A stretch of 64,000 nt of DNA from assembly GCF_009914755.1 (NCBI RefSeq), contig NC_060925.1; one strand, 5' to 3'. This document shows, piece after piece, positions 36,501 through 39,500 of this stretch; the stretch's first letter is position 1, and every line of letters starts with the position of its first letter. The DNA comes from the human T2T-CHM13v2.0 reference genome, Homo sapiens. The position numbers were made by a program, and so were the translations under genes. The notes under the pieces were generated by a model, which searched no databases, was not told the DNA's origin, and saw only the letters and a list, made by a program, of their open reading frames with translations.

Positions 36501-39500
36501 TTTTGCTGATTTGGAGCCAAATACACTCATTAGTCACGTTAGATTCAGTTACTATTCTAGTGTCATCTGTCATTTCCTTTGTAGTAAAGACCAATAGAGT
36601 TGAGTCCAAGGACACTGGGCAGGGTTGGTGGGGGTGGTGGTGGGAGGGGGGCTGTTGGTGAGGAAAGAGAGAATGAGGATGGTGAGAGAAAAGGGCAAAT
36701 GGGTGCATTTGAGAAGAAAGATTGTGTAAGCTATAAAAATGATTTGATGTTGATCAACTTATTTGACCAATTATTTGCTGTTGTTCAGCTCAAAATAGTG
36801 CTTTGAATCTTAAAAGTGAATATAATTTTTGAAATGAAATTTAATCTACCATAGACTGAACACTAAAAAGCATATTCTGTAGGCAAAGTAAATATAGTTT
36901 GCCCTCCAATCTCAGATGATAATAGTACAGGCATATTTCCTGTGATGGAGAAATGTCTACATATCTGTTATATCTACTATAAACTAGGTAAATGTCCTTC
37001 CCATTAACCACATATGTTAATGTTCAACTTCCTTCTGAGACTCAATTTACTCATCTAAAAAATGAAAGTGAACTCTAAGATGCTTTCTAGCTCTAAAATA
37101 ACATAATTCTGTCACCATATTTGAATGCTCAACGATCAAAACATTTAAAATCGAGCATGATTGGGTTGAAACACTTAAGAAGCCTCTCAAACCTGTCAAA
37201 AAATTTTATTTGAGCATTGTGATACTCTAAATATATTTCTTCCTTTTTCTTTCGAAGAAAACAGGACAAATAAAACATGCATTTGTCAAAAATTTGTGAC
37301 ATAAGGAAGCCATATACAAAATGCAATTAATATCTCCTATTTGTAACTCACTTCATAACCAGTATGTATGTCATTGTGAAACTATAATGTAATTTTAATT
37401 GCTCATGTTTCTATTAACTGTGTTACCATATCTTTTCCCCTTCAAGGATTTCTTGCTGGTACTCTATTAATTGGTACCCTAATTCTAGTCATTGGACTAT
37501 GGAAAATCAGAGTGAGCAGAAATTCTGATGATTTTTAAAAATTTATTCCTAGTTTATTTCCAGTAAAATTTGGTACTGTATCAGTAGATGACTCTCTTAG
37601 CTTTATTTAAATTTTGGCGTGTCTCTGTATTCATTTTTGTCTGTAATTACTATCCTGGATTAACAGACTTCATGTCTGTTTTTTCTCAATATATTCAAAG
37701 GCGCATTTCAAAGCAAAGTGACTTGAAGTCTCATTTTGTGATCTATTAATCCACTGATTTTTTTCCACTCAGTGTAATTTATGATAGTATCTAGTGTTGC
37801 ACAGAAGCAAAGAAATCTAGGAAAAATCAACCTCTAACATACTGTGAAATTGCCTGTGATTAGGGCTTTTTCTCACTTATATTAATAGATGCCAGTCCAG
37901 CTCAAAACAGCACAGTGGTTAAGGCAGCAGACAAATGGGGGAAATATAGTACCTACCTCATATGATTATAATCATATATCAAATGAGTTGCCACCTGTCA
38001 AGTGCTTAGAACATTGCTTGGCACATAGTAAGCACTCAGATATTAAAACAACAACAGCACACACACACATCAGTATTATTTAAAATATCTAATCTGCATT
38101 GAATATACATAATGTTAAGTATAAATGTCACGATTGGCTCTGATGTGTCCTGTAGACAGATGATGATTTAAATCGACCCTCTTCTGTTTTGTAGTTTTAA
38201 CTGTTCAGAAAACTAGTTGTGGAATTTATACAAACTTGAGTTATTTCTAAGCTGCCCTAATGCCTGTCCGTTTTTCCCATTAATAAGAAAACTATTAATT
38301 TAATGCTGTTATTAAATTGTCTGTTTTAATTCTTTAGATGATGTGACCTATCTCCTTTTTACCCTCTACAATTTTTCTACTTAAATTAAGAATATTACTT
38401 AAGCCTATTATAAGTTAAAGCATGTAAATATTCTTTAACTCACTAAATGAGTCAGTCTTGTAGAAAAATATTTGACCATTAGGTCCAGGGGAGTGATTAA
38501 TAATTTTTACAGGCATTTGTTTAATATCAACAAAATATTCTAGCTGTCATGATAGCAAATATAGTAAGACATAACTTTTTCTCCAGATATATCAGAAACG
38601 TTTTAGGAATGTGATTTAGAGCCTAGCAAAAACTCACAGTTAGTACTAAGTCATCTAAAGTGAGTTGGTATGGAAGCATCAGCAAAGCTACTCTGAAAAA
38701 AAATAAAACCACCAATCTTACGTACTTTCTTGTACTTGTTCCAACTTTCCTTTTGAAATACTGTTATCAGTTTATCAAGTTATAAAGTATCAATGTATAG
38801 AGTATTATCAATTTACCAAAGCTACTGCTTTGAGACTCCCTGGATCGGTGGGAATGGAGACTGGGCGGGGGAGGGCGGAGGGTGGGCGGGGGCAGGGCAG
38901 CAAGATGTGATAAGTTTACCAGGTGCTGTCTCTTGGCTTTCATCAGTTTCTTTACATACTTTGGTAAGGTGATTGGCTGTGATACTTGTATGTCCTATTA
39001 AGGACATAAAGTACTGGAACATCGAAGGAGGGAATACAGTAATTTCTGCTTATCCTCGGTTGGGGGGCAGGGTGTTTCAAGAACCCCCAGTGAATGCTTG
39101 AAACAACAGATAGTGCCTAACCCTATATATGCTGTGTTTTTTCCTGTATGTACATACCTATGAGATAAAGTTTAATTTATAAATGAGGCACAGTAAGAGA
39201 TTAACACCAACGAATAATCAATTAGAACAATTTATTGTAGCAAAAGTTATGTGAATGGGGTCTCTCTCTCTCTCAAAATATCTTATTGTATTGTACTCAC
39301 CTATTTTCAGATTGCAGTTGACTGTGGGTAACTGAAACCACAGATAAGCAGACTAATGTATTTGTTTTGAATTGTATTTTGGGGTTTTGCAGTGAACTTA
39401 ATTGCTTATTTTCTGAATTAGAGGGAAAGTCATGCAAACTCCTAAGAAAGAATTTGTCTTTTTTATGTGCACATAAAAAACACTCCACTTGCTTTATTTT

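What the first reader, a model, noticed from the sequence alone, without database searches (positions are those of the whole stretch)
37447..37511. Hidden transmembrane exon in the last intron of GPI-anchored human CD55
Seen in sequence: non-repeat intronic DNA has a branch-like tattaac, a pyrimidine tract with AG (tcttttccccttcaag|) and a donor (AGA|gtgagc) bounding 65 nt. Entered in phase 1 from exon 9, it gives [26 protein letters not shown]: 22 uncharged residues followed by a basic stop-transfer. Established: human DAF is known as GPI-anchored or soluble, while guinea pig, rodents and pig make transmembrane DAF. From recall, the segment resembles the TM regions of RCA paralogues CR1 (GTLSGTIFFILL...WIILKHRKG) and CR2 (GIAAGLILL...). 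Inference: this is the ancestral DAF TM exon. A shifted frame at its 3' end (GAC TAT GGA AAA TCA GA|, DYGKS, phase 2, from 37495) would connect to the tail exon at 39818, suggesting a small frameshifting deletion. Splicing exon 9 > 37447-37511 > terminal exon would still give a 388-aa type-I membrane protein ending WKIRGTRVSR* (stop 40867-69 in the last exon, so not an NMD target). Such a GPI-independent CD55 would matter in GPI-deficient (PNH) cells and could be a splice-switching target.
Basis: partly seen in the sequence, partly recalled or inferred. Interest (0 to 1): 0.92.

Follow-up and report, generated by a model that had tools for sequence, protein, structure and literature searches.

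The report
Frameshifted ancestral transmembrane exon in CD55
The last intron of human CD55 still holds the membrane-spanning exon and tail exon that many other mammals use to make a non-GPI form of this complement regulator, but primates carry it with an old 8-base frameshift, and whether humans still splice it in is untested.

Summary
37447-37511 is a 65-nt AG..GT-bounded segment. Entered in phase 1 from exon 9 it reads [21 protein letters not shown], and the frame then stops in the last exon, giving 388 aa.

- 42 of 120 listed mammalian CD55 isoforms, from squirrels to aardvark and platypus, carry a homologous TM exon ending KIFW-DYGKSG, or GKSG in general.
- The human exon keeps DYGKS in its +1 frame and is a net 8 nt shorter than the 73 nt those proteins imply.
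- The exon at 39818 is the orthologous tail exon: E=6.9e-9 in the window, and it is the best hit in the whole human genome.
- Lemur, orangutan and chimpanzee share the frameshifted GLWK(I/L)R reading, so the deletion is old.

The exon is not wholly hidden. An orangutan model (isoform X5) has exactly the predicted exon 9 > TM exon > last exon product. A chimpanzee model (X14) uses the exon with a donor 16 nt further on, a site that has no GT in human.

Not shown: any splicing in human, and paralogy to the CR2 TM exon (E=0.08). No paper describing it was found.

The parts
20696..20716 (+). CD55 exon 9 (..TTRLLSG), ends in phase 1; upstream partner of the candidate exon
   Evidence: hub annotation
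37412..37446 (+). branch-like TATTAAC, pyrimidine tract and AAG acceptor of the TM exon
   Evidence: 15 of 17 Y at -20..-4; 20 of 1096 AG sites in the last intron do as well
37447..37511 (+). TM exon, 65 nt, reads (G)[21 protein letters not shown] in phase with exon 9; orthologue of the mammalian TM-DAF exon, net 8 nt shorter
37495..37511 (+). remnant of the ancestral frame (DYGKS + GA), +1 relative to the frame entered from exon 9
   Evidence: frame 0 translation; 5 of 5 identical to squirrel and rabbit DYGKS
37512..37517 (+). donor GTGAGC used in the orangutan X5 model architecture
37512..37527 (+). 16-nt extension (VSRNS + G) included in the chimpanzee X14 model; the next bases in human are AT, not GT
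39818..39920 (+). relic of the cytoplasmic-tail exon (SYNAHESNK...SGKL, stop TAA 39918-39920) behind a strong acceptor (15 of 17 Y, CAG)
   Evidence: E=6.9e-9, 20 of 33 identical to squirrel; best hit in the whole genome, E=9.7e-4
40849..40869 (+). start of the last exon read in the frame left by the 65-nt exon: GTRVSR, stop 40867-40869
   Evidence: the orangutan model ends GTSVSH
40853..40969 (+). last exon in the second frame ([28 protein letters not shown]..): orthologue of the alternative cytoplasmic tail that non-primate TM isoforms read after GKSG
   Evidence: marmot, hyena, donkey TM isoforms, E 4.9e-14 to 1.7e-13

Best explanation
Window 37447-37511 is the human orthologue of the alternative transmembrane exon of mammalian CD55 (DAF).

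Ancestral state (inferred from proteins of other mammals). The exon was 73 nt. It was entered in phase 1 from the exon ending ..SG, encoded a TM helix ending KIFW followed by DYGKSG, and left in phase 2. From there it went either to a tail exon (SYNTHENNK...KL*, human 39818-39920) or to the last exon read in a second frame (..[18 protein letters not shown]..).

Change in primates (shown at protein level; its DNA form is inferred). A net 8-nt loss, present before lemurs and apes split, shifted the 3' end of the exon. It now reads ..IGLWKIR and leaves in phase 0, cutting off both ancestral tails.

What remains (shown). The open frame, a strong acceptor and a usable donor are still there. Splicing exon 9 > 37447-37511 > 40849 would give a 388-aa type I membrane CD55 with a 9-residue cytoplasmic end and a stop in the last exon. 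That architecture is the one in the orangutan X5 model.

Likely use (inferred). In human the exon is at most a rarely included cassette, absent from RefSeq, rather than a major isoform.

My odds: orthology about 0.95; any detectable inclusion in some human tissue about 0.5.
For: Sequence anatomy.

Primate models containing the exon:
- Chimpanzee isoform X14: 93% identical over 29 aa, E=3.7e-6 against 5.8 billion proteins.
- Orangutan isoform X5, ending ..GLWKIR + GTSVSH.
- Lemur catta X2, with ..IGLWKLR (E=2.4e-5).

Non-primate isoforms:
- 42 of 120 listed CD55 isoforms carry the GKSG-ending TM exon (40 by pattern, plus aardvark P0075 and platypus P0084).
- They come from squirrels and marmots, rabbit, cetaceans, hippo, oryx, cats, hyenas, dog, panda, horses, aardvark and platypus (names).

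tblastn of 12 C-termini against the window:
- 10 of 12 hit 37431/37440/37446 to 37502/37526 (one, rabbit P0049, ran on to 37601). Non-primate E-values ran from 0.003 to 0.68.
- 6 of 6 queries that have the tail exon hit 39795/39819-39917. Five ran from E=6.9e-9 to 0.005. The platypus hit was weak and partial (E=0.078, 39819-39860).
- 3 of 3 queries with the other tail hit the last exon, at E about 1e-13.

Other points:
- The order of the pieces in the window is the same as in those proteins.
- Genome-wide, the squirrel TM+tail peptide finds the CD55 tail exon as its best hit (E=9.7e-4).
- In ground squirrel and marmot, three different continuations follow the same GKSG. This places the exon end inside that Gly codon, i.e. 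phase 2.
Against: - No human transcript evidence could be examined, and the hub's RefSeq table lists no exon here among 10 transcripts.
- The donor is only moderate (6 of 9) and the acceptor has A at -3.
- The TM-exon matches to non-primates are individually weak (E 0.003-0.68). The platypus and donkey queries gave no TM-exon hit at E<1.
- The ape and lemur proteins are automatic gene models. I could not see what transcript evidence supports them.
- None of the roughly 30 other primate entries listed (Old and New World monkeys, gibbons, tarsier, human) carries the exon.
- CD55 is absent from PNH blood cells by routine cytometry (established knowledge). So a GPI-independent form is not made there in visible amounts.
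- Human, chimpanzee and orangutan are too close for the intact frame to show selection.
- The classical TM-DAF species (mouse, rat, guinea pig, pig) were not among the 120 listed proteins, so they were not compared directly.
Confidence: 0.85

Rival explanations
1. It is a dead relic only. The exon is orthologous to the TM-DAF exon but is never spliced into human CD55 mRNA. The ape models reflect rare splicing noise or species differences.
For: No exon is listed here in the hub's RefSeq table of 10 human transcripts. The donor is moderate and the acceptor is AAG. The chimpanzee-type donor site has no GT in human. The literature searches found only engineered TM versions of human CD55. PNH cells lack CD55 (established knowledge).
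Against: The acceptor, the donor and the open frame are all intact in human. The orangutan model's protein corresponds to a junction at the human donor position. The pyrimidine tract is among the best 2% in the intron.
Confidence: 0.4
2. It is a chance hydrophobic open frame between a chance AG and GT in AT-rich intron DNA, unrelated to any TM exon.
For: Nine distinct places in the window give hydrophobic AG..GT open segments. TM-like peptides match each other weakly by composition, for example CR2 at E=0.08.
Against: Ape and lemur models contain it. DYGKS sits in the +1 frame exactly where other mammals have DYGKSG. The neighbouring tail exon matches at E=6.9e-9 with the same stop, and the order of pieces is the same. 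The tail exon is the genome-wide best hit.
Confidence: 0.02
3. It is a maintained, functional primate TM-CD55. After the frameshift, primates kept a remodelled TM isoform under selection, expressed in restricted tissues. Apes have a short tail, and the lemur has a tail that regains the ancestral ..SGKL* ending.
For: The frame is open in human, chimpanzee, orangutan and lemur. The lemur X2 model reads from the frameshifted exon back into ..DVRSGKL*. The human tail exon keeps 20 of 33 residues and its stop relative to squirrel, without indels. The mouse TM form (Daf2) is mainly expressed in testis, a tissue rarely examined for human CD55 isoforms (PMC2213052, passage seen).
Against: Lemur-human identity of 58% over 24 aa is about what weakly constrained or neutral sequence could give. 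No monkey, gibbon or tarsier model has the exon. The human tail exon cannot be read in its old frame from any open upstream frame. No expression data were available.
Confidence: 0.15

Closest known systems
Transmembrane CD55/DAF isoforms of non-primate mammals. Literature: mouse Daf2, rat, guinea pig, pig. Compared here: predicted isoforms of squirrels, rabbit, cetaceans, carnivores, horses, hippo, oryx, aardvark and platypus.
   Same: Same place between the ..SG exon and the GPI-signal exon. Phase-1 entry. A G-x-x-A-G-T..IG..ILV hydrophobic core. A DYGKS remnant. The same tail exon with the same stop. The same second-frame tail in the last exon.
   Different: The human and primate exon is a net 8 nt shorter. 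It ends GLWKIR instead of KIFWDYGKSG and leaves in phase 0, so both ancestral cytoplasmic tails are out of frame. The mouse, rat, guinea-pig and pig proteins themselves were not among the 120 listed and were not compared.
Pongo abelii CD55 isoform X5 (P0002) and Pan troglodytes isoform X14 (P0001), automatic NCBI models
   Same: X5 has exactly the exon 9 > TM exon > last exon reading predicted for human, with 22 of 24 residues identical across the exon. X14 contains the same exon, 27 of 29 identical.
   Different: X14 runs 16 nt further (VSRNS) and returns to the GPI-signal frame. The corresponding human site reads CTG|AT, so human cannot use it as a GT donor. X5 also retains the long S/T insert. 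No human model with this exon is in the hub's RefSeq table.
Engineered DAF-TM / TM-CD55 chimeras (CD46 or HLA-B44 TM and tail)
   Same: They show what a TM-anchored human CD55 does. It protects cells from complement as well as GPI-CD55 does (PMC2118896, abstract seen; PMC5584126, passages seen).
   Different: They are artificial fusions with foreign TM and tail. TM-CD55 did not localise to rafts or trigger LCK/ROR2 signalling. The native exon would give a far shorter cytoplasmic end.
Human soluble DAF mRNA with the Alu-derived exon (window 21690-21807)
   Same: It reads the last exon in the same second frame (..[28 protein letters not shown]..) that non-primate TM isoforms use as a cytoplasmic tail. 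Which human isoform this is comes from recall.
   Different: It reaches that frame through a primate Alu exon, not through the TM exon, and it lacks a membrane anchor.
TM exon of the neighbouring RCA gene CR2
   Same: It begins G-x-x-A-G and is a hydrophobic helix. It is the best hit of the human peptide within the last 10 kb of CR2.
   Different: Only 9 of 21 identical, E=0.08 in 10 kb. No tail similarity. It was not found in the genome-wide searches. Common descent is not shown.

Membership tests
Mammalian TM-DAF alternative 3' exon module | Lies between the exon ending ..SG and the GPI-signal last exon, in the order TM exon, tail exon, last exon | tested here: met
   20716 < 37447-37511 < 39818-39920 < 40849, the same order as in the proteins
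Mammalian TM-DAF alternative 3' exon module | TM exon sequence homologous to TM-DAF proteins | tested here: met
   10 of 12 C-terminal queries hit this exon. Primates gave E=1.2e-13 to 2.4e-5 and non-primates only 0.003-0.68. In addition DYGKS is 5 of 5 identical in the +1 frame.
Mammalian TM-DAF alternative 3' exon module | Phase-1 entry from the preceding exon | tested here: met
   The upstream CDS is 1081 nt, which leaves phase 1, and the Gly codon is split as in the other species
Mammalian TM-DAF alternative 3' exon module | Phase-2 exit (GKSG) into a cytoplasmic tail of 30-40 residues | tested here: not met
   The human exon is 65 nt against an implied 73 nt and exits in phase 0. It reaches LL* in the tail exon or GTRVSR* in the last exon.
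Mammalian TM-DAF alternative 3' exon module | Orthologous tail exon present | tested here: met
   39819-39917 against squirrel: E=6.9e-9, 20 of 33 identical, same stop. It is the genome-wide best hit, E=9.7e-4.
Mammalian TM-DAF alternative 3' exon module | Exon is spliced into mRNA in this species | not testable with these tools
   No human RNA data were on hand. It is absent from the hub's RefSeq table and present in orangutan, chimpanzee and lemur models.
Mammalian TM-DAF alternative 3' exon module | Product is a PI-PLC-resistant integral membrane protein | not testable with these tools
   Only hydropathy was computed: an 18-residue window with mean Kyte-Doolittle 2.31, followed by KIR
Shared RCA-cluster TM exon (CR1/CR2 paralogy) | Significant similarity to the TM exon of CR2 or CR1 | tested here: inconclusive
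   CR2: E=0.08, 9 of 21 identical in a 10-kb search. No CR1 or CR2 hit appeared in the genome-wide searches. The CR1 locus was not fetched.

The most novel reading that the evidence does not exclude
Primates did not simply lose TM-CD55. After an 8-nt frameshift in their common ancestor they kept a remodelled, short-tailed transmembrane CD55, and the lemur even reads back into the old ..SGKL* end. Humans still make it from 37447-37511 in restricted tissues such as testis, as mouse does with Daf2. That would give a natural GPI-independent CD55 whose inclusion could be raised by splice-switching.
Probability: 0.15. Interest if true: 0.8.

Novelty: new variant of a known kind. Interest (0 to 1): 0.6.

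Why it matters
Human CD55 is taught as GPI-anchored or soluble only. Laboratories that needed a transmembrane version built chimeras with CD46 or HLA parts.

This result explains at the sequence level why primates lack the classical TM-DAF that many other mammals have: an old 8-nt frameshift that disconnects both cytoplasmic tails. It also identifies the human tail exon and shows that the second reading frame of the last exon is the old cytoplasmic tail. And it shows that a splice-competent TM exon remains.

If the exon is included in any tissue, human cells would have a GPI-independent CD55 with different raft and signalling behaviour. If it is not, it is still a defined target for testing splice-switching in PIGA-null cells.

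Clinical weight is limited. CD59 loss, rather than CD55 loss, is held to drive haemolysis in PNH (established knowledge, no call).

Tried and rejected
- Genome-wide searches with the exon DNA, the exon peptide and the tail peptide found only themselves. So no paralogous copy was detected, but the first-look filter is coarse.
- CR2 3' end (L004). The real CR2 TM exon was the best hit for 3 of 8 queries, at E 0.08-0.30 only, and there was no tail match. Paralogy is left open. CR1 was not fetched.
- Literature. Searches found no paper describing a native human TM exon or isoform of CD55. The hits were mouse or rat TM-DAF statements, engineered chimeras, or unrelated (CD58, CAR, C. elegans DAF-2).
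- Osuka et al. 2006 (vDAF1-5) and Miwa et al. 2001 are not held. I therefore could not check what vDAF5, called membrane-bound in PMC4926246, contains. The hub's exon list for all 10 RefSeq transcripts has nothing at 37447.
- The composition-only test was set up after seeing the candidate and is weak on its own.
- Whether a human protein with this exon hides inside the 90%-identity clusters P0001 (13 members) or P0002 (7 members) could not be checked.
- The calls show 10 of 12 and 7 places.

Full report
**1. Observation**

The sequence is as described.
- TATTAAC lies at 37412-37418.
- A pyrimidine tract ends in AAG at 37446.
- The segment 37447-37511 is 65 nt and is followed by GTGAGC.

The CD55 coding sequence up to exon 9 is 1081 nt, so exon 9 ends in phase 1. 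Entered in that phase, the segment reads [22 protein letters not shown]. Splicing on to 40849 gives GTRVSR and a stop at 40867-40869, for 388 aa in all. Splicing on to 39818 in the same frame gives LL*, 384 aa. The +1 frame of the last 17 nt reads DYGKS.

Splice-site quality:
- The acceptor tract has 15 of 17 pyrimidines. This equals the best constitutive CD55 exons, and only 20 of 1096 AG sites in the last intron reach it. Its -3 base is A, as at constitutive exon 6.
- The donor matches 6 of 9 consensus positions. This equals the weakest constitutive donors, and 207 of 1353 GT sites in the intron reach it.

The DNA and the peptide match only themselves in the held human genome.

A scan whose criteria I set after seeing the candidate found 9 distinct places in the window, 7 on + and 2 on -, where an AG..GT open segment encodes an 18-residue uncharged stretch. 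Only this one also has a good pyrimidine tract and a basic end. Composition alone is therefore suggestive, not decisive.

**2. What it is: primate models**

A search of 5.8 billion proteins with the 52-aa open frame around the exon gave one hit, chimpanzee CD55 isoform X14 (E=3.7e-6). Its C-terminus contains the exon, then VSRNS, then the normal GPI signal.

A second search restricted to that region added orangutan isoform X5. It ends ..GLWKIR followed by GTSVSH.

So the exon is already in public automatic gene models of great apes. The chimpanzee model runs 16 nt past the human donor. In human the next bases are AT, so that site is not a GT donor. I could not read the chimpanzee DNA.

**3. 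What it is: other mammals**

A whole-protein search listed 120 CD55 isoforms, and I read their C-termini.
- 42 of the 120 carry a hydrophobic segment ending in GKSG. Forty were found by pattern, plus aardvark P0075 and platypus P0084.
- They come from squirrels and marmots, rabbit, cetaceans, hippo, oryx, cats, hyenas, dog, panda, horses, aardvark and platypus.
- The typical reading is ..SG/YG, then F/L/C-V-A-G/A.., then ILVKIFW, then DYGKSG.
- After GKSG there follows either SYNTHENNK...SDKL* or ..[25 protein letters not shown]...
- In ground squirrel and marmot, three different continuations follow the same GKSG. The exon therefore ends inside that Gly codon, in phase 2.
- That implies a 73-nt exon. 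The human exon is 65 nt, a net loss of 8 nt between ILV and DYGKS. This explains both the ..IGLWKIR reading and the DYGKS in the +1 frame.

tblastn of the last 90 residues of 12 isoforms against the window:
- 10 of 12 hit the exon. Orangutan gave 2.2e-10, chimpanzee 1.2e-13, lemur 2.4e-5, and non-primates 0.003-0.68. Platypus and donkey did not hit at E<1.
- All 6 queries that have the SYNTHENNK-type tail hit 39819-39917. Squirrel gave E=6.9e-9 with 20 of 33 identical and the stop in the same place. The weakest, platypus, reached only E=0.078 over 39819-39860.
- All 3 queries with the other tail hit the last exon in its second frame, at E about 1e-13.

Against the whole human genome, the squirrel TM+tail peptide finds the CD55 tail exon as its best hit (E=9.7e-4).

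**4. Age of the frameshift**

Lemur catta isoform X2 reads ..LGIGLWKLR. This is the same shifted reading, with the same junction, as human ..LVIGLWKIR. Rabbit and squirrels have the unshifted form. By parsimony the loss predates the split of lemurs and apes.

The lemur model then continues into ..DVRSGKL*, the old end of the tail exon, so some further change restored the frame there. I could not see how.

None of the other roughly 30 primate entries in the list carries the exon. These are monkeys, gibbons, tarsier and human, and they are GPI, Alu-exon or other forms.

A beaked-whale model (P0046) has an independent ..GQWKIRLLLHT reading. This shows that the same +1 shift of GKSG yields WKIR.

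**5. How it most likely works**

- Shown: a splice-competent, open, hydrophobic exon, orthologous to the TM-DAF exon, whose product would stop in the last exon. A stop there is not expected to trigger nonsense-mediated decay.
- Inferred: inclusion would give a type I membrane CD55 with a 9-residue cytoplasmic end.
- Engineered TM versions of human CD55 protect cells from complement as well as the GPI form does (PMC2118896, abstract). They do not sit in rafts or signal through LCK/ROR2 (PMC5584126, passages).
- Whether human cells include the exon is open. RefSeq lists no exon here, and CD55 is absent from PNH blood cells (established knowledge), so any use must be minor or limited to certain tissues.
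- The mouse TM form, Daf2, is mainly a testis transcript (PMC2213052, passage). That makes testis the first place to look.

**6. Comparison and novelty**

This is the TM-DAF module known from rodents, guinea pig and pig (literature) and seen here in many orders, but in a frameshifted primate variant without the old tails.

The recalled likeness to the CR2 TM region is weak: E=0.08, 9 of 21 identical, in the last 10 kb of CR2. CR1 was not tested.

Nine literature searches found no description of a native human TM exon. Osuka 2006 could not be read, so the content of vDAF5 remains unchecked. Supplements were not consulted.

**7. Verdict**

It counts as a new variant of a known kind, already partly captured by ape gene models. 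Interest is moderate to high because present-day use is directly testable and would change the textbook statement about human CD55.

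Noticed in passing
window 40853-40969 (+): The second reading frame of the last CD55 exon (..[39 protein letters not shown]) is the orthologue of the cytoplasmic tail that marmot, hyena and donkey TM isoforms read after GKSG (E about 1e-13). From recall, it is the same frame that the human Alu-exon soluble isoform uses. So that isoform's odd C-terminus would be an old cytoplasmic tail.
   Followed up: partly
window 39818-39909 (+), frame after exon 9: Skipping the TM exon and joining exon 9 to 39818 reads [18 protein letters not shown]. Narwhal, alpaca and cat models (P0087, P0088, P0096) have matching AL(T/I)..M(R/K)T.K.. readings. A short secreted-type ending through the tail exon therefore seems widespread.
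   Followed up: no
P0001 (chimpanzee X14), window 37512-37529: The chimpanzee model keeps the TM exon in frame with the GPI signal by using a donor 16 nt downstream, giving a protein with both a TM helix and a C-terminal GPI signal. The new junction recreates the S-G-H context of the normal attachment site. Human has AT where a GT would be needed.
   Followed up: partly
P0119 (Lemur catta X2): After the frameshifted exon the model reads AYHRRCRV and then ..TVGASDVRSGKL*. It returns to the ancestral tail frame through a change that I could not resolve without the DNA.
   Followed up: no
P0084 (platypus, named complement receptor type 1 isoform X2): It carries ..DSGKSGSYNTYENNKACNV.., the same post-TM motif and tail start as eutherian TM-CD55. 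The TM+tail module is therefore at least as old as mammals, and this gene's name may not reflect its orthology.
   Followed up: no
P0046 (Mesoplodon densirostris X2): It has an independent +1 reading of the GKSG region (..KIFWGQWKIRLLLHT), resembling the primate WKIR end followed by the LL.. frame of the tail exon.
   Followed up: no
window 48194-48344 (+): A TG/TA-rich low-complexity stretch reads as long Cys/Val/Ile/Tyr open frames. It produced most of the hits in the hydrophobic-exon scan and is a typical false positive for such scans.
   Followed up: no
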